A stretch of DNA of 63,934 nt, filler included, from Reclinomonas americana ATCC 50394 (lineage: Eukaryota): assembly GCA_048213135.1 (NCBI GenBank). It is 15 parts of 15 records of this genome, joined end to end, with 100 filler letters (N's around TTAATTAATTAA, not from the genome) between each part and the next. Parts side by side here need not be neighbours in the genome. Positions count along the whole stretch, not along the records: positions 1 to 10,166 come from AFZH01017952.1; 14 more parts are not named here. One strand, given 5' to 3'. Below the pieces are notes generated by a model. It ran no database searches. It was not told the origin of the DNA and worked only from the letters and a program-made list of their open reading frames with translations. This document shows positions 1-61,953 of the stretch, piece by piece. A program made the position numbers and the translations under genes. Numbering within the stretch: the first letter of the stretch is position 1; each line of letters starts with the position of its first letter.

Positions 1-141
1 GGTAGGACGACCGTTACGGTCGTCGCGTACGAAGTACGGCGGTCGGTCGGTCGGTCGGCGGAGTAGTCTGTGTCGTACGTGTGTCGATGTGAGTGTGTGA
101 GAGAGAGAGAGAGAGAGAGAGAATAGCAGCATTGTGTAGTC

Positions 142-207: not shown

Positions 208-2231
208 GATTTGTGTTCTCCGGATTTCGTGCTGTGTGCCAGCGAGCTGCATCACTTGTGTCGGTGAGTGAGGGAGCGAGAGAAGGCAGCGCGCTGGCTT
301 GCTTGACTCTCTCATTGTGGCAATGATTGCCAGTGAGCATGTGACGCAGAGTGGATCGGATCTGTGTGGCGACGGAATCACATCGCACGCCACGTTGAAG
401 GAGGCACCACGACGACTCCAACTCATGTACACCAACATAAAGGTTGCGTTGTTGTTGTCTATTGATGCAGAGTGCATCGCCAGTGATGTTGACATGAAAG
501 AGAGCACCACAGATTGCATGCCCGCTGTGCCACGCACCCATGGTTTGTTTGTCATGGAGAGTTGAGTGTCTTGCTTTCTCTCTCCTCACTTGTGGATGAG
601 CAGACGGTGGGCGACTATTACCGCACACATGGCCTCACGCAGTGCCCGCATGCATGCGAGAGGTGTGGACAGCAAATGACATTGGATCGCACGGCAGAGC
701 ATGAGTGGAGTGGATGCTTGCGCGAGTGTCCACTTGGGTGTGGAGCGAGGATGGCGCTGAATGAGATGGTGGAGCACAGCTGGAGTGGGTGCATGCGTGC
801 ATGTCCGCGTGGTTGTGAGCAGCGATGTTCATTGGCGGAGATGCAGAGGCATCTTGGTAAGTGTGCTTGGAGGAGAGAGGTGTTTGTCATGACACTGATG
901 TTTCTCTTGTGACAGAAACGGAGTGCCGACTGCAGCGCACTGTGTGTCGTGGTGGCGAACTTGGGTGTGGATGGCGTGGGATCATTGGTGAGAAGGAGGA
1001 GCATGAGAGATTGTGCGATGTGCTGCGAGTGGAACGACCACTGCGAGAGGTTTGTTGGGTGAGAGGAGATGTGATGAGAATGGATTCACTTGGTTCTGAT
1101 TTCTGGCTCGCATTTGCACAGCTGCATGATCGAGTGCGAGAGCTCTCTCAGCTGGTGGCCGAGAGCAGGGAGCAACTGGTACAGGAAAGAGAGGCGAGGC
1201 AAGCTGAGGTGCAGGCTGCCCGTGAGCAAATAATCGACTGCGTGGGGATGCTCGTCGAGTGCCGCCAGCAACTGGCTGATGAACGACAAGCGAGACAAGC
1301 CACAGACGAGCAACTTGCTTCTGAGCGTCGCATGCGTGAAGCTCTGGAGAGAGGCGTTGCTGAGGTCTGATTGTGGCTGTCAGCGGATTTTTAGGTGCAA
1401 TGCTCCTCTCCTTACTTTACCTTTTATCTATCTGCAGCTGCTCGCCCGTCTCGAACCGCTGGAGACGCGTGAACGAGCGTTCCTGGAGCGAGAGGCGGCG
1501 GAACGCGAGCGGCAGGCTAGAGAGCGAGAGGAGCGGGAGCAGCAGGCCAGGGAAGTAGAGGAGCGGGAGCGGGAGGCCAGAGAGCGAGAGGAGCGCGAGC
1601 GAGCGGAGAGGAAGATTGATAGCGATCTTCTGGATGCAGCGGATGGCGAGTGGTGTTGGAGTGGGTGCAGCAAGCGAGAGGTGGCGGTGGGAGTGTGCCA
1701 AAGCTGACGTTGCTGTTCAAGGGCAGTCGAGATGGATTCAAGGCAGCCACATTCCATCAGCGGTGTGACAATCGTGGGTGAGTGGGAGACTGCTTGTTGT
1801 GCTCGATGACGTACGAGTTAGTTATCGTGCGCAGAGCGACGCTGACGGTGATAAAGTCATCGACTGGACGAGTGTGTGGCGGATACACGCCGGTCTCGTG
1901 GCAGACTGGCACCGCTGGTGGCGTTTATGCCGCCGATCCATCTGGCACAAGCTTCCTGTTCTCGGCATCGTGGAGTGGTACAAGTGCGCGACGCTTTGCG
2001 CTGAGGGATGATCAGAAACAAAGTGCCCTTTGGCATAACTCTGGAATCGGACCTACCTATGGACGAGGCCATGATCTTATTTTATATGACAGCTGCAACA
2101 GGAACAGTGACAGCGGCAGCAATCTTCCATTTACGTATCAGAGCACTGATGGTGGAGCTTGTAACGATGCGACACTGATGGGTACGCGCAAATTCCAAGT
2201 GGCCGACTACGAAGTCTTCCTCGTTGAATGA
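208..2231 (+). pseudogene. RING-like/TRAF-type zinc finger, coiled-coil, TLDc protein, copy A (5' exon missing; apparent 1-nt frameshift before TLDc)
   Basis: Spliced exons read DLCSPDFVLCASELHHLCR / EHVTQSGSDLCGD / IACPLCHAPM / CPHACERC..HEWSGCLRECPLGC..., then a coiled coil and TLDc motifs (LLFKGSRDGF..FHQRCDNRG, GGYTPVSW, SFLFS, GPTYGRGHDL, ADYEVF). At ~1645 it reads gatggcgagtgg versus gatgggcgagtgg in copy C, which shifts the frame to a stop at 1707. This could be a sequencing error. Confidence 0.7.
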
Positions 2232-2388
2232 ACAAGAGAAGCAATCACTGCCGGCACCGCCTGCAATCCACAGCGCTAGAATGATGTGCTTCATTCCTCA
2301 GTGCAGATTTGCAATTCTTTACTGACGAGACATTGTCCCACACTTGCGTCCCCCACCGTCTTTGCAATTGTTCCGTGTTTCGTTGAGA

Positions 2389-4860
2389 ATGGGTTTCGAA
2401 GACGGTGGAGCTCGAGATGAAGGCAGTGGATCTTGCTTCACTGTTCCACCATCTCCTCCAGTTGCCTCCGCTGATGAGAGTGATATTGCTTTCGAGCAGC
2501 AAGTGATGCGACTCTCTGGCCATGGTGGCGATAGTGCAGCGGAGCAATACGTGTTCTGTGTGGTGCACACCGCACATCATCGACGGCCGTCGGAAGTGGA
2601 CGGAGACAAGGGGAATGTGCAGCCTCCGCGTTTGTGGATGGAGCAAGTCGCTGCGGAGTCGCGGGCGCTTGCAGAGGAATACGTGTGTTCCGTGTGCACG
2701 GTGAGTGTTTCTTCGTGTGTGCGTGGATTGCAAACGACGTCGACATTGACAATATCACCATGCGCTGCGCTGATAGGACCTGTGTGCTCCGGATTTCGTG
2801 CTGTGTGCCAGCGAGCTGCATCACTTGTGTCGGTGAGTACTGGTGAGAAAGGCAATGCGCTGGCTTGCTTGACTCACTCATGTGGCAATAATTGCCAGTG
2901 AGCATGTGACGGAGAGTGGATCGGATCTATGTGGCGATGGAGTCACGTCTCTCGCCACGTTGAAGGAGGCACCACGACGACTCCAGCTCATGTATAGTAA
3001 CATGAAGGTTGTGTGTGGTTTTCTATTGCTGCCGAGTACATCGCCAGTGATGCTGACATGGGTGAGCACCACAGATTGAATGCCCGCTATGCCACGCACC
3101 CATGGTTCGTGTTGTAATGGAGAGTTGATTGTCTTGCTTTCTCTCTCCTCACTTGAATGAGAACAGACGGTGGGCGACTATTACCGCACACATGCCTTGA
3201 CGCAGTGCCCGCATGCATGCGAGAGGTGTGGACGGCAGATGACACTGGATCGCACGGCGGAGCATGAATGGAGTGGATGCTTGCGCGAGTGTCCACTCGG
3301 ATGTGGAGCAAAGATGGCACTGTGTGAGATGGTGGAGCACAGCTGGAGTGGGTGCATGCGAGCGTGTCCGCGTGGATGTCAGCAGCTGTGTGCGCTGGCG
3401 GAGATGCAGAGGCATCTTGGTGAGTGTGGTTGTCGGAGAGAGGTGTGTATCATAACACTGACGTTGTGTCTCTTGATGCAGAAACGGAGTGCCGACTGCA
3501 GCGCACTGTGTGTCGTGGTGGCGAACTTGGGTGTGGATGGCGTGGGATCATTGGTGAGAAGGAGGAGCATGAGAGATTGTGCGATGTGCTGCGAGTGGAA
3601 CGACCGCTGCGAGAGGTTTGTTGGTGAAAGGTGTTGTGATGAGAATTTCCCTTGGTTTTCATTTCTGGCTTGTGTGCACAGCTGCATGATCGTGTGCGAG
3701 AACTGTCTGTGATGGTGATCGAGAGCAGAGAGCGCCTCGTCCAGTGCAGCGAGCAGCTGGCATCGGAGAGAGAGGCTAGGCATGTCGCCGACGTCCAGTT
3801 GGCTGAATGTGTAGGCATGCTTGTCGAATGCCGCCAGCAGCTGGTGAGCGAGAAAGAGGCGAGACAAGCCACTGATGAGCAACTTGTCCAGTGCCGTCGA
3901 CAGTTGGCAGATGATCGACAAGCGATACAAGCTACAGATTTACGACTAGCCGCGTGCACTGAGCAACTCGGGTCAGAGCATCGTATCCGCCAATCTCTCT
4001 CTCAAGGAGTTGTTGAGGTCTGCTGTGTGACTCGGCTGCATCTTCTTGTGTCCCCCTCCGACTCTTTGTCGATTTTCAGCTTCTCGGTCGTCTCAAGCCT
4101 CTGGAGGCGCATGTACGAGCGATCCAGGAACGAGAGGCGGTTGAACGTGAGCGGCTCGCAAGAGAGCGAGAGGAGTGCGAGCGTGAGGCCAGGGAGCGTG
4201 AGGAACGCGATTTCGCCGCGAGAAAGATCAACAGCGAACTGCTGACCGAGGCAGATGGAAGAGTGGTGATGCAGTGGATGCAGCAAGCACGAGGTGGCGA
4301 CGGGAATGTGCCCAACTTGACATTGCTGTTCAAGGGCAGTCGAGATGGGTTTGCGGCCGCGACATTCCATCAGCGGTGCGACAATCGTGGGTGTGTGGCT
4401 GTCGGTGGGGGGAGAAAGATTGATATGCCTGTGTGCGTGACGTAAGAAAATTGTGTGCACATGCAGAGCGACGCTGACGATTGCAAAGTCGTCGACGGGG
4501 CGAGCATGTGGGGGGTACACGCCTGTCTCGTGGCAGTCTCCTCCGTCAGCCGCTTACGTCACCGATCCATCCGGCACCAGCTTCCTGTTCTCGGCATCGA
4601 CGAACGGTGCTGGTGTGCGACGCTTTGCGCTGAAGGACGGCAGCAAGCAGAACGCCGTGTATCACCGCTCCGCGTACGGACCGTGCTTTGGCGGTGGACA
4701 TTGCCTCATCTTGTCTGACAGCTGCAACATCAGCAGCACCAGCTACAGTAACCCTTCTTTCTCGCACCAGAGTATCGACGGTGGACCGTGCGACAACACG
4801 ACGTTGATGGGTTCGCAGAACTTCAAAGTGGCCGACTATGAAGTCTTCCTCGTTGAATGA
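2389..4860 (+). CDS. RING-like/TRAF-type zinc finger, coiled-coil, TLDc protein, copy B (multi-exon)
   Basis: ATG at 2389 (MGFEDGG...EEYVCSVCT), with GT-AG introns at positions equivalent to copies A and C. Cys/His zinc fingers, heptad/ER-rich coil, and a complete TLDc domain ending ADYEVFLVE*. Confidence 0.85.
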
Positions 4861-5129
4861 ACAAGAAAAAGCCAATCACTGCCAACAGTCCAACAGTCCT
4901 TTGGGCTGCTGGGATGGAAGCGCTTCATTCACGGTCCCATTCCATGAAATACGGTTTCGCACCTGTTTGCGCGTCTTGCACATCAAGCATACGTGCCAAC
5001 AAACCGTCTGTGGCACTCTCCATACGCAGCACCCATCGATGCGTCACTCTTTGCTTCGCCCTCTCACGAGGAGACGCGTCCTGCACACACATGAATGTCC
5101 TCCACCCATTGTTCCGTGTCTCGTTGAGA

Positions 5130-7624
5130 ATGGGTTTCGAAGACGGCGGAGGCGAAGGCAGTGGATCTGCTCCTCCTCTTCTTCCTCCTCCTCCTGCTGT
5201 TGCTTCAGAGGATAACAGTCAGGTTTTTCTCGAGCAGCAAGTGATGCGACTCAGTGATGGTGAGGAACAATACGTGTTCTGTGTGGTGCGCGCGGTGCAT
5301 CGTCGTCCTCCATCAAAGGAGGTAGAAGAAGAAGAGAAGGGGAAGGATGATGTGAAGGAGCCGCCGCGTTTGTGGATGGAACATGTTGTTGCGGAGTCGC
5401 GAGTGATGGCGGATGAGTATCTGTGTCCAGTGTGCATGGTGAGTGCGTGTTTGAGAGAGATAGAGAGAGAAGAATGCAGCATTGTGAGTCGTTTCTCTCT
5501 CTCTCTCTCTTGTGTGCTTGCATTGATGATTGTTTGTTGTCAGGATCTGTGTGCTCCGGATTTCGTGCTGTGTGCCAGCGAGCTGCATCACTTGTGTCGG
5601 TGAGTACTGGTGAGAAAGGCAATGCGCTGGCTTGCTTTACTCACTCATGTGGCAATAATTGCCAGTGAGCATGTGACGGAGAGTGGATCGGATCTATGTG
5701 GCGATGGAGTCACATCTCACGCCACGTTGAAGGAGGCACCACGACGACTCCAGCTCATGTATGGCAACATGAAGGTTGCGTGTGGGTGTCTATTGATGCA
5801 GAGTGAGTCGCCAGTGATGTTGACATGAGAGAGCGTCACAGATCACATGCCCGCTGTGCCACGCACCAATGGTTTGTGTTTGTCATGGAGAGTTGAGTGT
5901 CTTGCTTTCTCTCTCCTCACTGGTGGATGAGTAGACGGTGGGCGACTATTACCGCACACATAGCCTCACGCAGTGCCCGTATGCATGCGAGAGGTGTGGA
6001 CAGCAGATGACACTGGATCGCACGGCGGAGCATGAGTGGAGTGGATGCTTGCGCGAGTGTCCACTCGGATGTGGAGCAAGAATGGCGCTGAGTGAGATGG
6101 TGGAGCACAGCTGGAGTGGGTGCATGCGAGCGTGTCCGCGTGGATGTCAGCAGCGGTGTGCACTGGCGGAGATGCAGCGGCATCTTGGTGAGTGTGCTTG
6201 GAGGAGAGAGATGTGGAATGATACTGATGTTGTATATCTTTGTTCTGTTGTTGCAGAAACGGAGTGCCGACTGCAGCACACAATGTGTCGTGGTGGGGAA
6301 CTGGGGTGTGGATGGCGTGGTATTGTTGGTGAGAGGGAGGAGCATGAACGAGTGTGTGATGTGCTGCGAGTGGAGCGACCACTGCGGGAGGTGAGTTCGG
6401 TGAGAGTAGATGTGATGAGAATGCACTCTCTTTGTTCTGATTCGAGGCGTGTGTGGGTGCGCAGTTGCACATGCAAGTGCGCGGGCTGTCGCAGCTGGTG
6501 GCCGAAAGCAGAGAGCAGCTGGCTCAAGAGAGGGAGGCAAGACAAGCTGCGGATGAACGCCTTGGTCAATGCAGTCTGCAACTTTTGGATGAGCGGCAGG
6601 CACGACAAGATATGGAGGGGCGACTTATTAGTTGTATGGGGATGCTTGTCGAGTTCTGTCAGCAACTAAAGTCCACAGACGAGCGCCTTAGTGTGTGTAC
6701 CGAACAACTTGCGTCAGAGCGGCGCATGCGCGAAGCTCTCGAGGGAGGTGTTGCTGAGGTCTGCGTTGTCATTGTTAGTGGAATCGACTCCATCTCTCTT
6801 CTCATTCCGTCTCCTATCCATCTGCAGCTTCTTGCTCGTCTCGAGCCGCTGGAGATGCGTGAACGAGCGATCCAGGAACGCGAGGCGGCGGAACGTGAAC
6901 GGCAGGCGAGAGAGCAGGAGGAGCGAGAGCGGCAAGCCAGAGAGCTAGAGGAGCGAGAGCGGCAGGCCAGGGAGCGAGAAGAGCGGGAGCGAGCGGTGTG
7001 GGCGAAGACAAGTGATCTGCTGAGTGCGGTGGATGGGCGAGTGGTGCTGCAATGGGTGCAGCAGGCGCGTGGCGGTGGGAGTGTGCCCAAGCTGACGTTG
7101 CTGTTCAAGGGCAGTCGAGATGGATTCAGGGTAACCACATTCCATCAGCGGTGTGACAATCGTGGGTGAGTGATTGCGGAAATGAGAAGGAGAGCACGGT
7201 GTGCTTGATAATTGATGGATGAGTGACTGTTTGCAGAGCGACACTGACTGTGGCCAAATCGTCGACGGGACGAGTGTGTGGTGGATACACGCCTGTGTCG
7301 TGGCAGTCTGCGGGCAGCTATATTGCGGATCCATCTGGCACAAGCTTCTTGTTCTCCGCGTCGTGGAGTGGGGCAACTGCGCGACGCTTTTCACTGACGG
7401 ACGATGGGAAACAATATGCCGTGAATCACTACTCTGGGCATGGGCCTACATTCGGAGATGGACACGACTTTCGCTTGCTTGACAACTGCGACAGCAACAC
7501 CGATAGCAACAGCAACCTTGGGAACTCTTACCAGAGCACCGACGGCGCTGCATGCGACAACACGACCCTGATGGGATCGTATAACTTCCAAGTGGCCGAC
7601 TACGAAGTCTTCCTCGTCGAATGA
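5130..7624 (+). CDS. RING-like/TRAF-type zinc finger, coiled-coil, TLDc protein, copy C (multi-exon)
   Basis: ATG at 5130 (MGFEDGG...DEYLCPVCM), same exon structure as copy B. TLDc motifs LLFKGSRDGF, GGYTPVSW, GPTFGDGHDF, ADYEVFLVE*. Starts 2741 nt after the ATG of copy B. Confidence 0.85.
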
Positions 7625-7657
7625 ATTCAGTTCTGCAAGCTCAACAACAACAACAAA

Positions 7658-7893
7658 TTCATTCACAACAAACAAGCAACAGCTGTCTTGATGACCAAGT
7701 TCAATCGTATCCAAAACATCAACACAGACACCAATCTTGAGGCAGCAGCAGGTTTCTTGTGTGTGTGTGTTCGCTCTCGGAGCTCCGAACAAGTCGAGAA
7801 CGGCGATCTTCACCGCATAAGGGTGGTTGACCAGTGGATTTGATGCACTTGCATATAGTGTTTTCTGCGATCGTACACGGCACATCGAATTCG
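7658..7893. repeat. Dispersed ~230-bp repeat, copy 1
   Basis: Aligns by eye with 43035-43258 (aacaaacaagcaacagctgtcttgatgaccaagttcaa...gacaccaatcttgaggcagcagcagg...gagctccgaacaagtcga...ttttctgcgatcgtacacggca). Confidence 0.85.
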
Positions 7894-8427
7894 GGAAAAG
7901 GCCATAAGCCAGGCAAACAAAGCAAAGCCGGGTCCTACTTGTTGAGTTCCGAGAGCGAATGCACAAGAAAACTGCCACGGTCTTCGAGACTGGTGTTGGA
8001 TATGACATCAAGACAAATGTTGCTTGTTTGTTGACGATAATTGGAAGTTTGCATGATTTCAGACAAAATTGTTGGACAAAATATCAGTTTTAATCACTCC
8101 AAGCCCTTCTGCCACACCCCACCATGAATCCAGTGCAGCTGGCATACGAGATACACAACACGTACACACCTGCGTAGTGCGTCTGCATCCACATTACTGT
8201 CGATTTTACTGAACGAATGTGAAAGCGATAACCGTCGATTTTTCCATTTTCAGTTCACATTTGTGTGAGAGTGGAACAAGTACGTCTGCTCGACCAGAGA
8301 GAGGGTTGCAAAGAGATAACAAACATGTGGGACGACTATGGGCCATCGCGATATCATCCCGAGGCGGTGGAGGGAGCGAGGTGAGAAGAAAAAGAGACAG
8401 AGAGAGAGAGAGAGCGAGAGAGAAAGA

Positions 8428-10528: not shown

Positions 10529-10698
10529 TGTGTGTGTGTGTCTCCCCCTTCTGCCTCTCTCTCCTCCCTCTTGCCCTCCTCCCCTCTCCTTCCCCTCTCA
10601 TCACATTTTCTGATCACCTCTTCACTTTTCCAGCCACCACACTCAACAAACCCTCTCCCGCCGCCCGCATACCCCCCAAAAGAAACGCGCTCAAGATG

Positions 10699-13600
10699 TC
10701 ACCGGTAGCGCACGGTCGACATCGGCTGCGGACTGGTAATCGTCCGCGACGATGCGGACGACGACTGCGACTGCTGCGACGGCGGTGGGTCCGTGTACAA
10801 ATCGATCGTCGACCGCACCAACACCGGTCCACCACCGTAGCGCTCGCAGAAAAAGTCCCACACCTGCGGAGAGCAGCGAGTGAGTAACCCATGGTGCGCT
10901 CTTCTGCCTTCTCAGGCTTCCCCTTATCCCTCCCTTCCCCACCCTTCCCCCCCTACGCACCCTCCGATTCACACCGCGATAATCCACGGCCTTTTGCAAA
11001 CCCCTCTTCGGCGCCCCATTCGGCGCCAACAACTGGTCGTTCAGGATCGCTCCCGGCAGCTCATTCGTCTCCTCATTCACAAACATCTTCCACCGATTCA
11101 GCCAGTACGATGAGATAATGAACCACTCGTTCGGCTGGTTGTGCTTGTCGAGCTCCACAATGGCCTCGCGCTCCTCCTGCAAGGCGAAGGGGATGAGGCA
11201 TAGCACGAGGAGGAAGAGGGAAACGGCGGTGGCACCTTTCTCCGTTGCGCCAGTGCCTCGCGGACCCGCTCACACTCGACACACTTGGAGAGCGTGCGCA
11301 GCTGATCGGGGAAGCCACCGAACGTGTCCACCACGCGATCGAACACGGAGCGCGGGATGCGCGAAAACAGCTGGTCGGGGTTGATGGAGCGCTGGTCGAA
11401 GCGGCCGTGCGGGCACATCGGGTAGTCCACCAGGTCCAGCTGCGCGGGGGGAAATGAGGACAAGGGAGGCAGGTGGAGTAGAGGGAAAGGGGGGGAACTG
11501 ACACGGATGAACGGATCCAGGCGACGAGAGAAGAAAGGAACAATGAGTGCTCATTTTTGCGGGAATATGTGCGAGAGTACAGCGAGAGAGAAAGCAACAG
11601 TAAGATAGAGAGAAAATCAGACAGATGAACGGAGCGAGTGTGCATTGAGTTTCTGAACAGGCAAACGAAATCCAAGAGAGAAGGAAAGAACAGTGAGTGC
11701 AAGAGCGAGTGGAGGCCTGAGAGAGAGAGAGAGAGAAAAGAAAGAAAAGAGAGAGAATGAGAAGGAAAAACGGAACGAGTGTGTATCACTGTGTTTCAAC
11801 ATGGGCGAGAGAAAATGTCAAAATCGAACGAGAAAGATGGAACAATCAGCGCTCTTCTCTGTATGCACATGTGCGAGAGCGAGAGAGAGAGAAGGGGGGA
11901 GACAGCGAGAGCAAGAAGCACTAAAAGTGAGTGAGAGCGAATGAGCCCGTGAGTTTCGGCATGTGTGCTTTCCTGCTCACGAGTGCGCAAGAGAAGGAAC
12001 GAAACTGCACGAATGACTCAGAGACAGAGTGGGTGCGCGCGTGAGGAGGGACGAGTACGACGACGCAGAGAGAAGAAAAGACAATTTATAAGTGACAGCA
12101 TGCATCCCCGTAACACTCACCACCGGACCCGGGTTGGCCAACTCGTCAAACTTGATCTTCCACATCTTGGAGATATACACCGATGACTCGGCGGCACTCT
12201 GCTGCTCCCACGCACGCTGCAACATGCGCCGTCTCTCAACGGCCAGGTCGTCGTTGCGGCGGTAGAACAGAATGTATGCCTGCGAGGAGGGTGGAATGAG
12301 ACTCGAAACACCGACACGAAGATGAAAGCACAGACAACATTTCCAGCTCGTGCTTGTGAGAGGAGCAGAAAGGAACACGGGCATGTGAAAGACAACTCGC
12401 CACTTTCTCCTTCCATCGTGCCCCTGATCCTCTTGCAGAGCTCTTTTTTCTCTTTTCCTGTACGCTTTGCGTTTGAACATCTCTTCTAGCACTCTTGTTT
12501 CTCTTGGTCAATTTGCTGCTTCTCCCTCCACTGTCCGTCCCTAAAAGTCTCTCTCGTGCTGTCCCCTCCCCGCCTCTAACGCAGACTCTTTATTCTCTGT
12601 CTATCATATCCTCCCGCTTTCTTTTGCATATACCACTCTCCTGGTTGTCTCATTTCTAACTCTCTTTCAAACCGTTGCGTCTCTCTTCCTCTCTCCGTCC
12701 CTCAGCGTCTCTCGTACTGTCTGTTCGTCGCCTCTTTCTATAACCCTTCTTTCTCCCTCATCTCTTCGTTCTCTGACTTTCTCCTCCTCGCTTCATTTTC
12801 TCACTTGCTCTCTTCTCTCGTGCTTCTCTGCCCCCACCGCTTCTCTCGTGCTTCTCTGCCCCCACCGCTTCTCTCAGATGCTTTCTTTCTCCCTCATCTC
12901 TTCGTTCTCTCACTTTCTCCCCCGCGCTTCATTCTCTCACTTACTCTCTTCTTTCGTGCTTCTCTGTTGTCTCCCATCATGTCTCCCGCCCCCATCGCTT
13001 CTTTCTAGTCCCTTCTTTGTCCCTCATTTCTTCGTTCTCTTGACTTTCTCGTGCTTCTGTGTCTCTTTCTCCTACTCTCCAGATTCCTTTCTTTCGCTTG
13101 CTCTTCAGCCTCTTTCTTTCTTTTCTCACTCACTCTCTCTTTTCCTCTTTCCCTTTCCCTCCCTCTCCTTCCCCCCCTCTCACCTGACTCGACAACGCAT
13201 CCTCCGGCGACGCCGAGTACACGCGAGAATCGTCACACATGAGCCACTGATCCTGCGTGCAATGCCGCACGTACGACGTGTAGTGACCACCTGCCAACAC
13301 CACCACAGTCAGCCAACAGCGGACGCCCGCAAAGCGCAACACATGCACACACCGCCAAAGCTTCCATGATGATTGATCACGCCATACAGCTCGTACAGTG
13401 CTTGACCCTCCTGTTGACAAAGAGATGATGAGCAAACGCCATTATTTCACTCTCACGCCGATATTTCCTATCGCGCACACACGCACACACAGTGCTAAAA
13501 GCCACCAACGCCCGGCTTTCTCTCCTCTCTCTTACGGACTGGAGATACAACATAATGCCTTATCACTCTTCTCTCTCAGAGCTGCGCGTTCTCAAAACCA

Positions 13601-16600
13601 ACGAACGCTGCCAGTTACCAAACTCCGTCAACTCTTTCATGCGCAGGTAAATATCTCTTCATCTGCAAGTGCTGCAACTCAACTACCGGACTCTTTTCAC
13701 AACATCAAGCCACTCGCCCACTCAAGGGTCGCCCAAAAGCACGAAACTCTGCATATTGTCCTCCCCCTTCTCCCTTCCCCCAATTCCCCTCCTTCTCCCC
13801 TTCCCCCACATACCTCATGATCCACATACGGCGCCATATCCAGCAGATTCGGGAACGCCACCTCATCGTCCTTCTTCGAGCCCCAGCTATGTACAAAGTC
13901 GAACCGCTTGATGTGGAAACACAAAACCTGCGCGCCACGTTGAGTATCATCACACGCCTCCTCCATCACCAAATTCACGCCCCAAACGCACCTCCGGCAA
14001 CGAGATGAACGAGAACTTCTTCGTTGCGTTCTGCAGTTTCTTGCAGCGCTCGCAACGGTACCGATTCTCCTTCACCAGTGCGTCGGGGAGACAGAACGCG
14101 TCGAGGCACTCTTCGAGGGTGACCGAGCCGCGTGTGCGGTCGTCGCCAAAGCCGAACAGGCCTTTTACGCGCGAGAGTATGCCGCCTGAGGGGGCGGGTT
14201 CGGCTGCGCGGAGGGGGAGAAAGGGAGGTGTGAGTAGAAGGGAGGGAGGGAGGAAGGGAGAGAAGAAAGGAGAATAAGATGAGTGCAAACTCGGCTACGG
14301 CGATGAGGTGGAGTTCTACATACATGAGGGAGAGAGAGAGAGAGTGAAAGAACGAGAGAAGAAGAGAAGAATGGGAGAACGGGAACTGGATAAGTGCAAG
14401 CGTCAGCGGGCAAGGAACCAAGGCGGTGCGAATGGAACGAGAAGAAAGACGGGTTTGATGAAGGGGAGACAGAGGCGAAAACTGACAAAAGTGTCCAGTA
14501 CAAGCGGGAGCGAGAAAGAAAAAATCGACGACACCGCAAACGCAACCACACATTCACACACAGTACACACAACGAGGGAGACAGAATGGAGGAGGGAAAG
14601 AGGACGGAATGATGGCGGGCAAGGATCCGACTCAATGAGGCGAGAAGAGATGCAAAGGAAAATGGCAACAACGACTGATGGAGACGAATCGGTGAGTCAT
14701 CCAACTGAGCTGTGGATGCAAGGAGAGCATGAAGTGACAGACCGACGGAGAAAGGACAGGGAGACTCACAGCAACAACCAACAAGGAGAGGGACACTGAG
14801 AAACTATGTTTTAGTTAAAAACAATTGTCTCTATGATTGCAGTGAACGGAAGCGACGTCAACGAACAGTCGCTTTTTCTTTTTTCGTTCACCAACGTGAA
14901 CCGCATTTCAGAGAGACGCAGAAGAAATGCAGAAGACGAGAAAGAGACAAGGAATTGCCGCCATCACAAGGCAACAAACCTCCAACCTAGTTTCGGGGAG
15001 GAGGAAGCAGGAAGAAAACGAAGACACACTCTTACTCTCAAACGCATTCAGTGAGAGATACAGAGACCCTCCTTCCCCTGATCTCCCCTTCCCCCCAGTA
15101 CCCCCTTTACCTTGTCCTTTCCGCTCACCATCCACCTCCATCCGCTCCTCCCCCTCGCGATACCGCCTCGAGCGAGCAATCTCCGCGCGCTTCTCCTTGG
15201 ACGGGATCGACACGCTGACATCCATAAATCTGTCTACCGTCTTGAATTTCTGTGCCACGTTGGAGGAGTGAGCCACTTCCATCGCCACACACGTACACAT
15301 TCCATCGCAACTCCTCCACATCCACTGCAGTCGACGGTGCTCACGAGAAGGCCCTCAAAGATGTCCGAAATGGGACTGGTGAATTCTCGCACCGGTCCCG
15401 AACTGGAGCGCAAAGAGAGTGAGCATCACTGCCTTTGGAAATGCTTCGCTTGCATCCACTCACCCCGCCGATTCGTGATCCACAATGCCGTCACCGATGC
15501 GGCGCGCGCGTGTCCATCGGTACTTGGAGAGTGAGCGTGCAGGTGCCAGGACCTGGGATGGGAAGGGTTGAGGGACGGAAACAAGGGGATCAAGCCGTGA
15601 AAATGGGAGAAAGAGCGAACGACAGAGAGAGAGAGAGAGGAGGGAAAGAAAGACGATAGAGTGCACGAGAGAGAGAGAAAGAGTGTGCGTGCGAGAAAGC
15701 GAGAGAGAGAGAGAAATCGAGCGGCACAGAAAGCGAAAGACATAGTGAGCGAGTGACAGAGAGGGCGAGTGACATAGAGCACGAGTGACAGAGAGCGCGA
15801 GTGACAGAGAGGCCGACATGCAAATAGAATGAGCGGCAGAGAGAGAGAGGCAGAGAAACATACAGAGAAAGAGAGAGAGACAGAGACAGAGAGAAAGTGA
15901 CACAGAGAGAGAAACGGCGAGTGACAGATAACAAACCACAGAGAGAGAGAGAGAGAGAGCAGCATAGAGAGGAAGCAGCAACACGAAAGATCACAACTAA
16001 ATAGACATCCCCCGAACAAACACAAACCTCATCGCTCACGTGCGTGATTTCGTGCTTCAGCGCCTCGTGCAGTCGATCCAGCATCGTGCGAATAAACTCC
16101 TGCGAGTCCTGCTGCCCGTAGCCTCGAAAAGGCGGATGCAACCGCTTGATCTGCTGCACGACAGCGTCGGGCGACACGGACTTCCGATTGCCATCCCAGA
16201 TGCATTGCAGCAGTTCGCGGTGTGCCTCGGCCAGGGGAACCTCTGCTTTTCTTTGCAGGGTGCTGAGGTGGGCCTCGAAGACGTCTGCGACACGGGGGAA
16301 GGGAGTAACGAGAGGGTGAGGAAGAGAGGGCAGGGAGGGGAGAGTGGGAGAGAGAAAGAAAAAGAGAGAGACAGAGCGAGGGGAAGAAGAGCAAACAATA
16401 AAGAGGGAAAGACGGAGAGAGGAAGAGAGAGAGCGAACAATTAAGAGGGAAAGATGGAGAGAGGGAACACTAAAGAGGGAAAGATAGCGGGAAGGAGAGA
16501 AAGAAACAAAGTAAGTCAATGAATAACAGAGTATTTGCACTTGGAACTGGGGAGAATGTGCCAGAGAAGCGACGAGAAGAAAGCAGTTACGAGAGCATCA

Positions 16601-18529
16601 GTAGAAAAGAGCGCCAGAGATGGAGAAAAAAGTGGTTGAGAATGGAGAGGACGCACCATAAACAACAGCGCGCGAAACCGGCGATCACGAGGGTGAAGTA
16701 CCGCGAAAGAAGCAATCGGAGATCATTAATGGAGGAGAGTGACAGAGAAAGAGGGAGAATACAGGGCATCAGCGTGTACGAGCAAGAGAGACAGGAGAGT
16801 GTGAGACAACGGGGAGAGAGCATGAGCGAGAAATGGTAGAAAGGAACCAATCGCGAGATTATGAGTGAACAACCAACGGCGATTGAGGTCGCAACACACG
16901 TTAACAGGGAAGGAGGCGAGAGAGAGCAACAGACGCAGCCAGTCATCTCATTGCGACTCACCAGACAAGAAAATGCGCGTCATCGGCAGCGTGTGAAACA
17001 AGCACTGCAGCGCTGAGTTGAGGTAACACGTGTTACCGAGATTGGAGAGACCGCAAGTGCCACCGCGTGGTGACTGCATCAAGGCACCGCGCTCGTCGAC
17101 AGACTGCGCGATGCGATCCTGCACCTCGCTCAGCATCTGCGGGAGGGTGAGAAGAAAGAGGGGACGTGAGCGAAGTGCAAGTGCGGCAACAGACCTGGCG
17201 GAAGCGCATGGCTTGCGGTCCATTTTCGATTTCCGAGTCACACTTGTAGCACCAGATCATCTGCGAGGTGGCAGGACCATAAACTCCTTCGGTCTCTGCT
17301 GCACCCTTCTCCTTCCCCACAAACAAACCTTTGACGACAGATTCATGTTCACGCAATGCGTGTCGTCCTGAATGGTCTGCACACAGGACGCGTGGTGTTG
17401 CAAGCAGTGGCCATTGTCGTAGCGACCGCAGCCAATGAATCCGCACTGCAACACAGAGTGAGTACTCTTGCAGAATAGTCATCTCCCTTTCCATCCAAAT
17501 CACCTTCAAACACGCCCACAAATTCGGCATCACAAACTCGCACAGCGTGCATCGCAGATTCTGCGCACGCAGCGCCTGCTGCAAATCCTCACGCCCGCAC
17601 AAATCGGCGAATTCCACACCTGTCAGCGCCTCAATGTGTTCGCACGTCTCCAGCCCCGCGGCCTCGGTGGCCATCGTAGCGGCTCCGTTGCCGGCCATTT
17701 CCGTGTCAAGGGTGGTCACTGTGGCGGTGGAGGGGGAGGGAAAGTGAGTGCGTGGGGTCAAAGGGATGCTCTCGCACAGCCCAAACTCGGAGGCGAGCAA
17801 CGGGAGAGGAGAGAAAGAGAGAATCACGAGGAAGCTAGAGAGAGAGAGGAGGGGAGGGGGGGGGCGAAATGCACAATACGACTGAGAGAAGAGACGAATG
17901 AGATACAGAGGATGCCCCGGAAGCGCAAAAATCTGGCATAGAGTGAGACGGACAGGTTGTGTTTGAGAGAGAGATGAGTTTGAGGAACAGGCGTGCTTGC
18001 GAGGAACATGGATTGTGCACACAAAGGAGGAGGAAACGTGCGTGCGTGACAATACTGCGGAAGCGAGCGAGTGAGAGACGGCTTCAAGGGAGATGACAGC
18101 GACGTGAGAGAGTTATGTGCATGCCAAGAGAGTGATACGGTTGCCAAGGCGTGAGGAACCATATTCTCTCTCAGTCTCGTTGTGCATTTCTCTCCACACA
18201 AACACACACTCAAACGTATCCGTAGCTTCCTCCTGACCCTGCAGAAACCACACGTTCTATTCTTACATTATCTCATTCCTACTTCCCAGGTCCTTCATTA
18301 TTCTTCACTCGCATTCGTTCTGCAGTCTCGTACTCCCCCTCTCTCACTTCCTTCCTCTCTTCGCTTACATGCCTTCTGCAGTCTCGTGCTCTCTCTCTCT
18401 CTCTCACAAACACGCACATCCCTCACTTCCTTCAGCCCAGCGTTCGTTCTCTCTTTCTCTCTCTCCCCTGTCACACTTCCTTCCTCTCTCCTCGCTTGCG
18501 TGCCTTCAGCAATCGTGTGCTCTCTCCTA

Positions 18530-18561
<32 letters not shown>

Positions 18562-19340
18562 CACGTAGGCCCCCCTCACTTCAGCCAATCGTTCGTTCTC
18601 TCTTTCTCGCATTCTCTCTTACCCCTCTCTCACCTCCTCCCTCATTCTTCGCTTGCATGACTTCTACAGTCACGTGCTCTCTCCTACTCTCACAAACACA
18701 CACACACACACGTCCCTCATTCCCTTCAGCCCAGCGTTCGTTCTTTCTTTCCCCTGTCACACCTCTTCGTCATTCATCGCTTGCATGCCTTCAGCAATCG
18801 TGTGCTCTCATACTCTCTCTCTCTCTCACGCAAACAGTCGCATCCTCCCTTTCCCCTCTCCAACCCTTCACCCTTTCCACCCCACTCACCTCCCGACGTC
18901 CCGTGCGACTGCCCAGTCAGCGACGACGGAGTCGACGATCCCACGGACGACGACGCCGCCGATCGCGACGCCGCCACAGCCCTCTGCTGCTGTGACTGAG
19001 ACTGAGACTGCTGCTGCTGCGACTGATCACTATTCACACGCTGCGGCTTGACAGATCCCCTCGCACCCGGCGCACTGTCGATCGTCGGCTGCACACGCCG
19101 CGACGACGTGTCTCCCAGAGGCGGAAGCGCCGGCGCCCTTCCCGTTGTCCCACTCAACACTCCCTGCTGCGTAGGACGTGCTGCTGCTGTCCCGCCCACA
19201 GAAGGCTTACTCGCGCTACTGCTACTACTGCTCGCCCCCAGTGGCGTCGATTGCTGCGCGGTCCCCGGTCGATTCAATGAAGCAGTGGCCGACGCTGACG
19301 ACGGAGTCGATGTCGACCTCGCGTGGCGGCGTTCCTCAGC
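10699..19340 (-). CDS. Ubiquitin-specific protease, USP20/USP33-like (ZnF-UBP + USP catalytic + DUSP domains); 5' start uncertain
   Basis: ZnF-UBP ([35 protein letters not shown]), Cys box [18 protein letters not shown] (~17000-17050), [34 protein letters not shown], His box [25 protein letters not shown]-terminal DUSPs ([36 protein letters not shown]). A Ser/Ala-rich exon at ~18890-19340 splices in frame to ~17719. Confidence 0.9.
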
Positions 19341-20641
19341 AGACGTACACGGGCACAGACACGACAAACCGGCGCGCGCGTTTTCAACACACAGACAACA
19401 CTCTGAGAGAGAGAGAGTCAAATGTCACTTTCGTCACTAAAGTGATATCTTTTGCGCACACTTACACGCACACATGCTCTCACACACACACTGTCTCTTT
19501 CTCTCTCTTTTCTCTTTCTTGTGTGTGAGTGTCTGTGAGTGTGACATGGCATCTCTCACACAGCAAACCGTTACAAACGTCGAAGTCACTCTCTCTCACT
19601 CTCTCACACTCTCTCACTCAGTAAACGCAACGTTTGTTGTTGCTGTTTTGCTTGTTGTTTGTGGTGTGTGCGCGCACTTGGACACACTCTCACTTTCTCT
19701 CTCTCTCTCACTCACACACGCGCGCTCTCACTCTTACTCACTCACTCACACACAAAGACAGACAGATAGAGAGACGACTAATGAGAGTTCGCTTTCGTCG
19801 CGCTGCCTCTGCTCTCTCTCACACACGCACACACACTTTGCAAAACAGCGCAGTTGTCGACGTTCAGGACAACTCTCATTTTTTGCAATTCACCTCCTCG
19901 TCCACTCATGCACGTGTATAAACCAAGCGTACGCGCTCAAGAGAGAGAGAATGCGAGGGCATTGCACTGGCGCGATTTGTGTTTTTTTAGTTGTCGACGT
20001 TGTGAGCGGACACGCCGCCAACTCCCTCCGCCCTCGCTCTGCACGCGCGCGTGTCTTGCGTGTCTGTGCGTTGATGGCCGCGTGTACACCGCGCGTAGTC
20101 TCCAGTCGTGCAGGTCATCAAGGAGCCCTGCACGTCGACGTTTCGTTCGAATCCGGACAAGTGCGTTTTATCACGCACACGTGGGTGCCAGCTCGCGTTT
20201 TTCCGCATGTGAGACAGCGCATAGTCGCGCAACATAATACGCGCTGTTTCTTTGCGTGCGTGTGTGTGTGGCATGAAAGAAAAAACGCGCAGGACACGCG
20301 CAATTTTTCTGTTTTTTATTGCGAGTGAGACAGTGTGTCTCACTGCTCACAGTGTGTTGTGTGAGTGAGTGTGCGCACACACCCGCGCGCGTGCACACAC
20401 AGTGAGAGAGAGAAAGACAGAGGGAGAGATTCGAGGTGAGTGAACGTCGAGCAACGTCTCTCTCTCTCACACACAGAGAGAGACAAGTCAGAGTGTGTGT
20501 GTGTGTGTGTGTGCGTGTGTGAGAGAGAGAAAGGCAGTGCTCTTTCTTGTGTGTAAGTGTGTGGCTCTTCCTCTCACAGAGAGTGATAAATAAGAGAAAT
20601 CATAAAAAGGCGCGCTCAGAGAGAGAGAGAAAGAGAGAGAC

Positions 20642-27632: not shown

Positions 27633-27819
27633 CTGTGATGGTTGTTGCTCCTTGGCTCTTGTATGCTACAGCAGGGTTCCTTGATGCTTGCTAGGAACTC
27701 CCTGCAACTTCGAAGTGAAGTGTCGGAAATTCAGTGTCCGTCGACGTCTCCCTGCACTGACGCGAGCTCGATCACACACACACACACACACACACACACC
27801 TTCGTCCGCATACAACCGC

Positions 27820-40630: not shown

Positions 40631-41523
40631 ATGTCCAGCGCCGCTCATCCTCTCCTCCTCCGCAAACACGTGCTTGAGGGTCACACTGCACCGGTGAGAT
40701 CTTTGGCCATCACTCCCGACGGACAGCACGTCATCAGTGGCAGCGATGACATGACTGTGCGAGTGTGGTCTCTCACGAGTGGAGCACAAGTGCGACGGCT
40801 GGAGGGACACACTGGAAGAGTGTGGTCTGTTGCCGTCACTCCCGATGGTCAGTACATTGTGAGCGGAAGTGATGACAACACGATGCGTGTGTGGTCACTG
40901 GCGAATGAAGAGGAAGTGCGACAGTTGAAGGGACACACAAGCGAGGTGCACTCTGTCACCATNNNNNNNNNNNNNNNNNNNNNNNNNNNNNNNNNNNNNN
41001 NNNNNNTTAATTAATTAANNNNNNNNNNNNNNNNNNNNNNNNNNNNNNNNNNNNNNNNNNNNTGCCAGTGTGGTCGCTGGCGAGTGGAGAGATGGTGCGC
41101 GTATTCGAGGAAGAGGCACAGGCTGTGCAGCCTATCACCATCACTCCCGATGGCCAGTACCTTGTCAGTGGTGGCTACGACAGGACAGTACGCGTGTGGT
41201 CGCTGGCGAGTGGCGAAGTGTTGCAACGGTTGGAGAGGCACACTGACTGGGTGTGGTCAGTCGCCGTCGCTCCCGACAGTCAGCAGGTGGTGAGTGGGAG
41301 TGAGGATATGACGGTGCGGGTGTGGTCCACTCCTTGCGGGTCCGCTCGATGTGAGCTTGATGCGGCTCGCACTGCTCTGCTGGCCGTCCAGGAGATGCAG
41401 TACAGGGAGGGTGAGGAGGTGGATTCACGGTGGTTGCCAGAGATGGTGCTGCGGTGTTTCATCGTGGAGGAGGCTGAGGTTGTGGTCTTCCGGTGCCTCA
41501 CGGATCCCCAGCTGCACATGTGA
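40631..41523 (+). CDS. WD40 family gene, cluster 2 copy 4 (interrupted by a spacer; halves may belong to different copies)
   Basis: The 5' part (40631-40962) and 3' part (41063-41523) both match the family. Confidence 0.8.
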
Positions 41524-41790
41524 GCATGGATGCGCCTTGCCTTCATGCGTCGTTCACGATTGTCTGGATCTTTTGTCTTTCTCTCTCTCCCTCTCTCTCT
41601 CTTTGCGTCAATGAATGAACAGTTGTAAGACGTTGACAGCAGGCTCGATCTTGGTTCTCCCCGCCAGCTGCGACTCACTTGAACCAAGGTATTGAACCAA
41701 GGCTTGTGCGCTTCAACGTCGAGAAAAATCCCGCAATCAGAGGACACTACCTCCCGCTCCGTCTCACGCACACGCAATCACCAATCATCC

Positions 41791-42891: not shown

Positions 42892-43034
42892 GCTTGTCTG
42901 CGACAAGAGCGGTGCAGGAGGTGTCGCCTGCGTGGTGTACTTGGTCTTGTTGTTGTTATTCTTCCCTAGCCTCTCCGTTTCGCTCTCTCTCTCTCTCTCT
43001 CACTCTCAACAAAGAATGAACTTATAACATCAAC

Positions 43035-43258
43035 TTCATTCACCAACAAACAAGCAACAGCTGTCTTGATGACCAAGTTCAACCATATCCAACATAGACA
43101 CCAATCTTGAGGCAGCAGCAGGTTCCTTGTGTGCGTGTGTTCGCTCTCAGAGCTCCGAACAAGTCGACAACTGCGAAACGTGGTTGGACAGTGGATTTGA
43201 CGCACTTGCATAGACGCACAGCGTTTTCTGCGATCGTACACGGCATATTGAATTCGAG
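43035..43258. repeat. Dispersed ~230-bp repeat, copy 2
   Basis: Homologous to 7658-7893, same orientation. Confidence 0.85.
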
Positions 43259-43683
43259 AAGCTTCTCGTGGCAGTGGAAGCTTCGACGCGAGTGGATCCG
43301 GATCCGGAAGCTTCAACAACGAATCCGTTTTTGCAACTGCAACTAGTGCATAATCGCCGGCATTCCGTGGCATGTCAACTTTTTTCTCGAGCACATGCTC
43401 ACTCGAGGCGGCGTCTACGATGCAGCTCCGAAAGCGCGGGCCCGCAGTCGGACCCAATATCAATGCACTCCGTTCCGATCGCAATCGCCGCTTTGCATTC
43501 GTTTCCCAATCCCATCTTCACATCGCACAGAACACTACTCAAATAGCCTGCACGATCACTTCATCGCGATCACCCGAAGAATCCTCTAAGACAACGCGGT
43601 CACGACAATCCGTCGATCGGGCGTGGTGCATTGTTTGTCACATTGTTGCATCAGTGAGCGAGCGCGCATTCACACTGCCTATC

Positions 43684-61072: not shown

Positions 61073-61200
61073 GGGAAGGGGGGGGAGGGTAGGAGGAGAG
61101 NNNNNNNNNNNNNNNNNNNNNNNNNNNNNNNNNNNNNNNNNNNNTTAATTAATTAANNNNNNNNNNNNNNNNNNNNNNNNNNNNNNNNNNNNNNNNNNNN

Positions 61201-61909: not shown

Positions 61910-61946
<37 letters not shown>

Positions 61947-61953
61947 GTCAATC

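What the first reader, a model, noticed from the sequence alone, without database searches (positions are those of the whole stretch)
208..7624. Tandem TRAF/TRIM-like E3 ligase genes whose terminal TLDc domain is the variable part
Seen: three tandem paralogues with the order RING-like, Cys/His zinc fingers, coiled coil, TLDc. The zinc-finger exons are almost identical between copies, while TLDc loops differ strongly (WQTGTAGGVYAAD / WQSPPSAAYVTD / WQSAGSYIAD; ALWHNSGIGPTY / AVYHRSAYGPCF / AVNHYSGHGPTF). Known: RING-ZnF-coiled coil-recognition domain is the layout of TRAF (MATH), SIAH and TRIM (PRY-SPRY) ligases, and canonical TLDc proteins (OXR1, NCOA7) bind V-ATPase. Inference: TLDc serves here as a diversifying recognition module on a constant ubiquitin-ligase scaffold, i.e. 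a candidate immune-type sensor family.
Basis: partly seen in the sequence, partly recalled or inferred. Interest (0 to 1): 0.75.

Follow-up and report, generated by a model that had tools for sequence, protein, structure and literature searches.

The report
Diversifying TLDc-headed TRAF-like gene family
An unidentified single-celled-type eukaryote carries about 80 related genes that join a constant ubiquitin-ligase-like front end to a TLDc domain in which a small set of surface positions is being driven to change, suggesting that TLDc, known as a proton-pump regulator, is used here as a variable recognition head; what it recognises and whether it ligates ubiquitin are untested.

Summary
Real, and larger than reported. 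The three window copies (two intact 9-exon genes, one cut by the contig start and frameshifted) belong to a family with 81 TLDc-exon matches at ≥60% identity. Layout: variant RING, five TRAF-type zinc fingers (fold nearest TRAF6), coiled coil, TLDc (Z 21). In 69 copies, 15 of 182 TLDc codons show positive selection (ω≈2.4–2.9, 2ΔlnL 365). This exceeds all 14 recombination-null simulations (≤44) and replicates in split halves. The sites are Tyr-rich and alternate along the second β-sheet, away from the V-ATPase loop. A tree-free test is weaker. The zinc fingers owe their similarity to purifying selection and to gene conversion; front ends and heads are shuffled. One close copy carries a VWA head instead. 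E3 activity is doubtful: the RING lacks canonical E2-contact residues. Not a TRAF (no MATH); works like finTRIMs. The scan noted this family before on other contigs; one note found no selection in six copies.

The parts
1..88 (+). Garbled contig start where the end of exon 1 of copy 1 should lie
   Evidence: Resembles the end of exon 1 of copy 3 but is unreadable; the window's first stretch is the start of contig C2485
208..2231 (+). Copy 1, exons 2-9 (208-263, 334-442, 513-542, 604-856, 916-1049, 1122-1364, 1438-1777, 1835-2231); 5' end missing, frameshifted in exon 8
   Evidence: GT-AG introns; stops appear after codon 364; last exon open with Pfam TLD E 2.5e-9
1645..1646 (+). One-base frameshift in a G run of copy 1 (sequencing error or real lesion, undecided)
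   Evidence: comparison with copies 2 and 3
2389..4860 (+). Copy 2, intact, 644 aa (exons 2389-2700, 2777-2832, 2899-3007, 3075-3104, 3167-3419, 3482-3615, 3682-4017, 4080-4390, 4467-4860)
   Evidence: start codon inferred from conservation in the family
5130..7624 (+). Copy 3, intact, 636 aa (exons 5130-5438, 5544-5599, 5666-5774, 5842-5871, 5935-6187, 6257-6390, 6465-6758, 6828-7165, 7237-7624)
5424..5708 (+). Variant RING of copy 3 over exons 1-3: C-x2-C-x10-C-x4-H-x2-C-x2-H-x8-C-x-D
   Evidence: Six ligands in exons 2-3 invariant in 52 of 52 copies, CxxC in 30 of 30 exon-1 models; Asp is Cys in distant paralogues; family profile aligns in register with a natural Sina-type RING, above 200 of 200 shuffles
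5842..6390 (+). Five TRAF-type C2HC zinc fingers (exons 4-6)
   Evidence: Pattern; Atlas zf-TRAF clusters 0.93; profile best hit TRAF4 2EOD E 0.0044; AF2 pLDDT 91, Foldseek TRAF6 3HCS E 4.7e-4
6465..7000 (+). Coiled coil (exon 7) and Glu/Arg-rich helical spacer (first half of exon 8), variable in length across the family
   Evidence: By inspection; only sub-threshold helical Pfam matches; lengths; no coiled-coil predictor was run
7008..7621 (+). TLDc domain of copy 3 (end of exon 8 plus exon 9)
   Evidence: Pfam PF07534 E 6e-15; model of paralogue L052 pLDDT 91.5, Z 21.4 and rmsd 2.0 over 162 residues to NCOA7-AS 7OBP
7310..7585 (+). Span of the 15 positively selected codons (copy-3 residues 533, 535, 565, 568, 571, 573, 575, 576, 579, 587, 589, 599, 604, 623, 624)

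Best explanation
A birth-and-death family of cytosolic recognition adaptors of the ubiquitin system. Each protein has a conserved TRAF-like front end (variant RING, five zinc fingers), an oligomerising coiled coil and spacer, and a TLDc head. The head keeps an invariant core and varies about 15 exposed positions on and beside its second beta-sheet, giving many binding specificities. Shown: architecture, family size, selection on those sites, shuffling of heads against front ends, and head replacement by VWA in one close copy. Inferred: the 15 sites form one binding face (secondary structure plus published topology, no coordinates); the ligands are diverse and probably foreign (microbial or viral proteins met in the cytosol or on damaged vacuoles); binding clusters the front ends and leads to ubiquitin tagging, by this RING or a partner ligase. 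Step odds: variable face binds diverse ligands about 0.8; ligands foreign about 0.65; this RING itself catalytic about 0.5.
For: 81 full-length TLDc-exon matches at ≥60% identity among 93; 75 of 78 modelled TLDc copies have a zinc-finger exon upstream. ω 0.36-0.40 in TLDc against 0.14-0.15 in fingers. M2a vs M1a 2ΔlnL 365, M8 vs M8a 269; 15 of 182 sites at P>0.95, Tyr 16.6% there against 2.6% elsewhere. With four segment-specific trees: 225, 13 sites. 14 of 14 recombination-null simulations gave 6-44 and ω2≤1.8. Split halves re-found 12-13 of 14-16 sites, held-out dN/dS 1.7-2.9 with a free synonymous rate. None of 81 positions of the first sheet and V-ATPase-side helices is selected; mean entropy 0.44 against 3.08 bits. 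Finger and TLDc trees disagree: RF 114 of 120 against 28-50 in five no-recombination controls. VWA-headed copy with a scaffold 87-91% identical to the clade. IBR/RING2-like tails on distant scaffold paralogues (weak Pfam). Canonical OXR1/mEAK7-type TLDc genes exist separately.
Against: The tree-free test is weaker: pN/pS is about 1.4 at the selected sites in 16-34 disjoint pairs, and in the 8 closest pairs pN 0.097 is below pS 0.134; synonymous differences are also raised at these sites. With site-wise synonymous rates only 8 of the 15 sites keep P>0.9. The site models are my own code with scaled nucleotide branch lengths. The RING has no Pfam or structure confirmation, hhalign gave no match, and it lacks the Pro-hydrophobic-Arg that follows the last ligand pair in the natural RING it aligns to. 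Other regions (exon 1, exon 7) also vary. No ligand or infection data were obtained.
Confidence: 0.6

Rival explanations
1. Relaxed constraint plus gene conversion: the exposed TLDc face is simply free to drift, and conversion homogenises the zinc-finger half, so the contrast is a by-product.
For: Conversion is real: introns 2-4 are 81-98% identical among the window copies; family-wide, introns 4-5 flanking the finger exon are the most alike (0.79, 0.74 against 0.61-0.68). Mosaic trees alone give false LRTs up to 44. The closest 8 pairs show pN<pS.
Against: The real LRT is 8 times the largest null; ω2 2.4-2.9 against ≤1.8; held-out dN/dS 1.7-2.9; six sites have P=1.00 with free synonymous rates. 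Tyr enrichment is not expected from drift.
Confidence: 0.1
2. A repertoire of adaptors for the cell's own proteins (turnover, development or self/non-self typing), diversified by paralogue specialisation rather than conflict with microbes.
For: Large E3-adaptor families can serve host substrates (established knowledge); TBC1D24 uses the edge of the same sheet to bind the host protein KIBRA (PMC11465063, passages).
Against: Continuing turnover with about 80 young copies, frequent head shuffling and recurrent replacement at the same 15 sites in both halves of the family fit moving targets better than fixed host substrates.
Confidence: 0.15
3. V-ATPase-anchored guards or decoys: the head still docks on the V-ATPase or damaged vacuole through the conserved helical loop, and the variable face evades or traps microbial effectors aimed at TLDc/V-ATPase regulation.
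For: The Gly equivalent to NCOA7 G815/G91, needed for V-ATPase binding (PMC8608904, 10.1101/2025.04.01.646557; passages), is invariant in 69 of 69 copies (register).
Against: That Gly is also structural; identity to V-ATPase-binding TLDc proteins is only 15-24%; canonical TLDc genes exist elsewhere in the genome; the position equivalent to S817 is variable; a VWA head works on the same scaffold.
Confidence: 0.1
4. Antioxidant or stress gene-dosage expansion, the reading given in print for other TLDc expansions.
For: Offered for Glomeromycotina (up to 400 copies; PMC10079182) and Entamoeba (54-343; PMC12930195) (passages).
Against: Dosage predicts uniform or conserved copies, not positive selection on one face of the domain.
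Confidence: 0.05

Closest known systems
TRAF proteins (human TRAF6; Dictyostelium TrafA-E)
   Same: RING, run of TRAF-type zinc fingers, coiled coil, C-terminal binding domain; finger fold nearest TRAF6. TrafE acts in amoebal cell-autonomous defence (PMC10181826, passages).
   Different: No TRAF-C/MATH domain; TLDc instead. RING ligands 6 and 8 are His and Asp. About 80 copies under diversifying selection rather than a few conserved ones.
Teleost finTRIMs and primate TRIM5alpha (RING-Bbox-CC-B30.2)
   Same: Clustered family of similar size (84 in zebrafish), near-identical RING-side regions, 16-17 selected sites in the C-terminal domain, recombination and exon shuffling (PMC2657112, passages). 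Best functional analogue.
   Different: TRAF-type fingers instead of B-boxes; TLDc instead of B30.2; selected sites on sheet strands as well as loops; no virus induction known.
SIAH/Sina ligases
   Same: RING spacing aligns with a Sina-type RING; the last finger resembles Sina_ZnF (weak hit in paralogue L092).
   Different: Five fingers, long coiled coil, no Sina substrate-binding domain.
Canonical TLDc proteins (OXR1, NCOA7, TBC1D24/Skywalker, mEAK7, Oxr1p, Rtc5p, IFI44)
   Same: Same fold (Z 14-21); the V-ATPase-loop glycine is kept.
   Different: 15-24% identity, extra helix and loop after strand 5, ligase-like front end, hypervariable second sheet. The genome has separate canonical copies.
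Unexplained TLDc expansions and TLDc fusions in other microbial eukaryotes
   Same: Entamoeba 54-343 and Glomeromycotina up to 400 TLDc genes. Among 65 of the best 150 database relatives scanned, 9 carry BTB_2, and single cases carry Sina-ZnF-CC-TLDc (P0085/P0152), B-box-TLDc (P0037), RING-kinase-TLDc (P0013) and BACK.
   Different: No selection analysis or recognition role found for these in the passages read; none of the 150 matched this family's front-end profile, so the fusion here may be independent.

Membership tests
TRAF | N-terminal RING domain | tested here: inconclusive
   Eight conserved ligand positions in RING spacing; in-register HMM match to a natural Sina-type RING above 200 of 200 shuffles; hhalign negative; no Pfam scan or fold possible because it spans three exons
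TRAF | TRAF-type zinc fingers | tested here: met
   Pfam zf-TRAF itself not hit on single exons
TRAF | Coiled coil (TRAF-N) that trimerises | not tested
   Helical heptad-like and E/R-rich sequence by inspection; oligomer state not predicted
TRAF | C-terminal TRAF-C/MATH domain | tested here: not met
   All exons accounted for; the C-terminal domain is TLDc by Pfam and fold
TRAF | E3 ligase activity with an E2 | not testable with these tools
   Needs an in vitro assay
TRIM/finTRIM | B-box between RING and coiled coil | tested here: not met
   All conserved Cys/His are assigned to the RING and five TRAF-type fingers; no zf-B_box hit in 14 exon pieces or 27 finger exons
TRIM/finTRIM | B30.2/PRY-SPRY head | tested here: not met
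   Head is TLDc
TRIM/finTRIM (works like) | Positive selection concentrated in the C-terminal head of a clustered family | tested here: met
   15 of 182 TLDc sites; 1-3 of 128 finger sites and 1 of 65 RING sites with LRTs (20; 4-8) inside the recombination-null range
SIAH/Sina | Sina substrate-binding (TRAF-like) domain | tested here: not met
   Position occupied by coiled coil and TLDc
TLDc domain family | PF07534 above cut-off and TLDc fold | tested here: met
   37.7-56 bits against cut-off 24.5; Z 21.4 to 7OBP
TLDc domain family | Surface glycine of the V-ATPase-binding loop (NCOA7 G815/G91) | tested here: met
   Gly in 69 of 69; register from profile alignments to Skywalker and mEAK7, to NCOA7 by inference
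TLDc domain family | Binding to V-ATPase | not testable with these tools
   No spliced host V-ATPase subunit or eukaryotic reference could be supplied
OXR1/NCOA7/mEAK7 orthologous groups | Closest TLDc gene of the genome to the canonical proteins | tested here: not met
   A separate gene (L112) matches mEAK7/OXR/NCOA7 at E 4e-11 to 8e-7, whereas a family member alone finds none of them

The most novel reading that the evidence does not exclude
TLDc is a general variable recognition module of microbial eukaryotes: its second beta-sheet is an antibody-like, tyrosine-rich binding face, mounted on ubiquitin-ligase scaffolds and re-assorted by recombination through a homogenised zinc-finger exon. 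This family is then an intracellular immune-receptor repertoire of a protist, and the large TLDc expansions in Entamoeba and arbuscular mycorrhizal fungi are such repertoires rather than antioxidant stockpiles.
Probability: 0.35. Interest if true: 0.85.

Novelty: new variant of a known kind. Interest (0 to 1): 0.64.

Why it matters
In the papers read, TLDc is a conserved V-ATPase regulator or antioxidant factor, and its expansions to hundreds of copies in amoebae and fungi are noted without a tested explanation. Here a named set of 15 positions behaves like the binding face of an immune receptor on a ligase-type scaffold. That gives a direct test for those expansions (do the same positions vary?) and a candidate sensor family for cell-autonomous defence in microbial eukaryotes, convergent with fish finTRIMs. 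The logic (constant ligase, variable head) is known; the head domain, and the evidence for selection on it, were not found in print in my searches.

Tried and rejected
Sequencing runs: none was listed for 2300-7700, so splicing, expression and the copy-1 frameshift stay unchecked. Word-indexed protein searches with the TLDc exon and the finger exon against longer proteins gave no hit (weak evidence). phmmer of single sequences against PDB found no TLDc or TRAF chain; profiles did. A mixed exon-5/exon-6 alignment was out of register and dropped; only exon 5 was folded. The RING could not be folded or Pfam-scanned: no paralogue reads through both of its first introns in frame. hhalign of the RING profile against four single sequences was negative. 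In one search two distant paralogues got a wrong exon 1; these and two near-duplicates were dropped. IQ-TREE codon runs did not re-estimate branch lengths, so scaled nucleotide lengths were used. The apparent selection in fingers and RING was rejected as within recombination noise. The Fisher test on site clustering uses a region drawn after seeing the sites and is descriptive only. An apparent 811-aa intron-free frame was an N gap. An Atlas search with P0085 gave only sub-0.9 TLD clusters. No complex prediction was sent: no candidate partner was available. The organism was not identified. Paper searches with no hit: TLDc+BTB+lineage-specific expansion, TLDc+expanded+ubiquitin ligase+amoeba, TLDc+TRAF-type zinc finger; some searches listed 20-25 papers each, none on this architecture by title or abstract start. 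The library lacks most subscription papers.
Full report
OBSERVATION. Three same-strand paralogues fill 208-7624. Splicing by coordinate gives intact 9-exon genes for copy 2 (644 aa) and copy 3 (636 aa), with 8 of 8 GT-AG introns of 62-105 nt each. Copy 1 starts at a contig end, lacks a readable exon 1 and has a one-base frameshift at 1645-1646. Between the three copies the RING and finger exons are 89-100% identical in protein and the last TLDc exon 64-73%.

FAMILY. The last exon finds 93 matches in the genome, 81 of them full-length at ≥60% identity. The finger exon finds 105 matches, 75 full-length at ≥77%. Both counts are lower bounds for matches; about five pairs are within 1.5-4.4% in TLDc DNA and may be alleles or recent duplicates. 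Copies sit in tandem clusters on many contigs, and the contig listed before this one (C2484) ends with another same-strand copy. I fetched 60 stretches and examined 82 TLDc regions. Exon 9 was modelled in 78, and 75 of these have a finger exon upstream; two of the other three run into N gaps. Exons 2-6 have nearly fixed lengths. All nine exons were clean in 20 of 82 regions, the rest mostly cut by gaps or contig ends. Nine of 66 first-pass models with five or more exons carried a stop or frameshift, one of them a boundary error cleared.

DOMAINS. TLDc: a paralogue whose last intron happens to be in frame allowed a fold of the whole domain (pLDDT 91.5), which matches NCOA7-AS at Z 21.4, rmsd 2.0 over 162 residues. 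Fingers: five C2HC units; language-model neighbours are zf-TRAF/Sina clusters (0.93); the profile's best solved match is the TRAF4 finger; the exon-5 model (pLDDT 91) is nearest TRAF6 (E 4.7e-4, TM 0.39). RING: C-x2-C-x10-C-x4-H-x2-C-x2-H-x8-C-x-D, invariant in the clade. Distant paralogues have Cys at the last position, once with canonical CxxC spacing, so the Asp is a substituted eighth ligand. A 19-sequence profile aligns in register with a natural Sina-type RING (10.8 bits; best of 200 shuffles 6.1), but hhalign found nothing. The Pro-hydrophobic-Arg that follows the last pair in that RING is replaced; from established knowledge (recalled) these residues contact and activate the E2, so ligase activity is open. 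The coiled coil and Glu/Arg-rich spacer are read by inspection only.

WHAT VARIES. Family-wide protein identity: finger exons 88% and 90%, RING 77%, exon 1 74%, TLDc 71%; pairwise ω 0.14, 0.15, 0.27, 0.33 and 0.36 (30-75 sequences per region). Within TLDc, hypervariable positions alternate with invariant ones. My own codon site models (GY94, F3x4, scaled nucleotide tree; 69 sequences, 182 codons) give M2a vs M1a 2ΔlnL 365 and M8 vs M8a 269, with 9-11% of sites at ω 2.4-2.9. Both models pick the same 15 sites; Tyr makes up 16.6% of residues there against 2.6% elsewhere. Fingers (1-3 of 128 sites, 2ΔlnL 20) and RING (1 of 65; 4-8) show little.

CONTROLS. With four segment-specific trees the LRT is 225 and 13 sites remain. 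Neutral simulations on 4- and 9-segment mosaic trees gave 6-44 in 14 of 14 runs, ω2 ≤1.8, 0-7 false sites; this covers the finger and RING signals but not TLDc. Random half-splits re-found 12-13 of 14-16 sites, and in the held-out half those sites had dN/dS 1.7-2.9 with a free synonymous rate (6 of 6 tests; the halves share deep branches). With site-wise synonymous rates, 10 of 182 sites reach P>0.9, 8 of them among the 15. Against: tree-free counts in disjoint pairs give only pN/pS about 1.4, and the 8 closest pairs give 0.097 against 0.134, with synonymous differences also raised at these codons. Selection is therefore well supported, but its strength may be overstated.

WHERE THE SITES LIE. 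No coordinates were returned, so this step is inference. On the model's secondary structure, seven of the 15 sites fall on six short strands and the rest on adjoining loops and two short helices; none falls among 81 positions of the first sheet and the N-terminal helices. In the NCOA7-AS structure paper (PMC8329711, passages) strands 6-9 and the start of strand 10 form the second sheet; counting back from the aligned C-terminus puts these sites there. The i, i+2 alternation with conserved neighbours (entropy 3.1 against 1.1 bits) indicates the outward face. The loop that binds V-ATPase in NCOA7 (PMC8608904 and 10.1101/2025.04.01.646557, passages) lies elsewhere and keeps its glycine in 69 of 69 copies. 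TBC1D24 binds KIBRA through residues at the edge of the second sheet (PMC11465063, passages).

WHY THE FINGERS ARE ALIKE. Two causes. Purifying selection (ω 0.14). And conversion: among the window copies introns 2-4 are 81-98% identical but introns 7-8 only 54-65%, and exon 6 of copies 1 and 2 differs by one base. Family-wide, the introns flanking the main finger exon are the most alike (0.79 and 0.74 against 0.61-0.68). Finger and TLDc trees share almost no splits (RF 114 of 120; same nearest neighbour in 6 of 63), against RF 28-50 and 30-34 of 63 in five no-recombination controls. Heads are thus re-assorted among front ends.

OTHER HEADS. Locus L088 has a scaffold 87-91% identical in DNA to the clade in its finger exon and keeps the first half of exon 8, then switches to a VWA domain with a DxSxS motif (Pfam E 4e-5 and 0.006, below cut-off). 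None of 17 more distant scaffold loci examined showed TLDc nearby (several end at gaps); four end in a Cys/His tail resembling IBR/RING2, with weak Pfam support in one. Canonical mEAK7/OXR1-type TLDc genes exist separately.

MECHANISM. Most likely a repertoire of cytosolic adaptors: variable TLDc face binds a target, coiled coils cluster the front ends, ubiquitin is attached by this RING or a partner. Confidence 0.6; rivals are host-substrate adaptors (0.15), drift plus conversion (0.1), V-ATPase-anchored guards (0.1) and stress-gene dosage (0.05). Ligand, activity and immune role are untested.

COMPARISON. Not a TRAF, TRIM or SIAH by membership (no MATH, B-box, B30.2 or Sina-binding domain). 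It works like teleost finTRIMs: 84 clustered genes, near-identical RING side, 16-17 selected sites in the head (PMC2657112, passages). TRAF-like ligases act in amoebal defence (PMC10181826, passages). The architecture class occurs elsewhere: among 65 of the best 150 database relatives scanned, 9 have BTB_2, and one each Sina-finger-coil-TLDc, B-box-TLDc and RING-kinase-TLDc. TLDc expansions are in print for Entamoeba (PMC12930195, passages) and Glomeromycotina (PMC10079182, passages), read as antioxidant or V-ATPase related. A 2026 review does not use the words protist or ubiquitin (PMC13570293, term counts and passages). PMC12139955 and PMC8804929 (passages) gave background on V-ATPase binding. 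No supplement was opened. Searches found no paper on this architecture or on selection in TLDc; the library is open-access only.

VERDICT. A real, well-supported new variant of a known kind of system. The scan had noted the architecture on other contigs of this genome; new here are the family-wide selection evidence with controls, the head shuffling and the VWA swap. Interest 0.64.

Noticed in passing
L088:1096-2850 (G000:C244, minus strand): A close copy of the RING-finger-coil scaffold switches in the middle of exon 8 to a VWA domain with an intact-looking DxSxS motif: a recent head swap.
   Followed up: partly
L092, L094, L099, L100 (G000:C8750, C4074, C597, C616): Distant scaffold paralogues end in a Cys/His tail like an IBR/RING2 domain (Pfam IBR E 0.003-0.01 in L094 only). 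In L092 and L094 a WD40-like gene appears to lie on the opposite strand just downstream (by eye).
   Followed up: partly
window 27685-31403, 36171-42891, 61157-62847 (+): About ten intron-free WD40 genes in tandem (Pfam WD40, 7 repeats in the one scanned) share a conserved 60-aa C-terminal tail with no Pfam match; by eye it recalls a SOCS/BC-box (recalled, untested). Possibly a second expanded adaptor family.
   Followed up: partly
window about 7720-7930 and about 43000-43400: The same non-coding stretch follows copy 3 and the last WD40 gene of a cluster (matching minus-strand translations); a dispersed repeat that may aid tandem duplication.
   Followed up: no
window 1-88: Garbled contig start resembling the end of exon 1, with carry-over-like base errors; suggests homopolymer-prone reads, relevant to the copy-1 frameshift.
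   Followed up: partly
L042 (copy at oriented 2884) and L078: Two copies have a 328-nt exon 5 instead of 253 nt, an in-frame gain of 25 codons, about one extra zinc finger.
   Followed up: no
L111, L112, L113 (G000:C569, C211, C70): Canonical TLDc genes: two near-identical OXR1/mEAK7-like loci and a TBC1D24-like one (by eye).
   Followed up: partly
P0001, P0038, P0008 (database proteins): Proteins with 5-7 tandem TLDc domains, some with EGF, laminin-G or PKD domains or a likely transmembrane segment, hint that this TLDc subtype is also used outside the cell.
   Followed up: no
window 10691-19424 (-), 32375-34146 (-), 44321-46530 (+), 49162-52516 (-): Ordinary housekeeping-type genes by eye: ubiquitin-specific protease, UbiE-type methyltransferase, OSCA/TMEM63-like channel, eRF3-like GTPase (names recalled, not scanned).
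   Followed up: no
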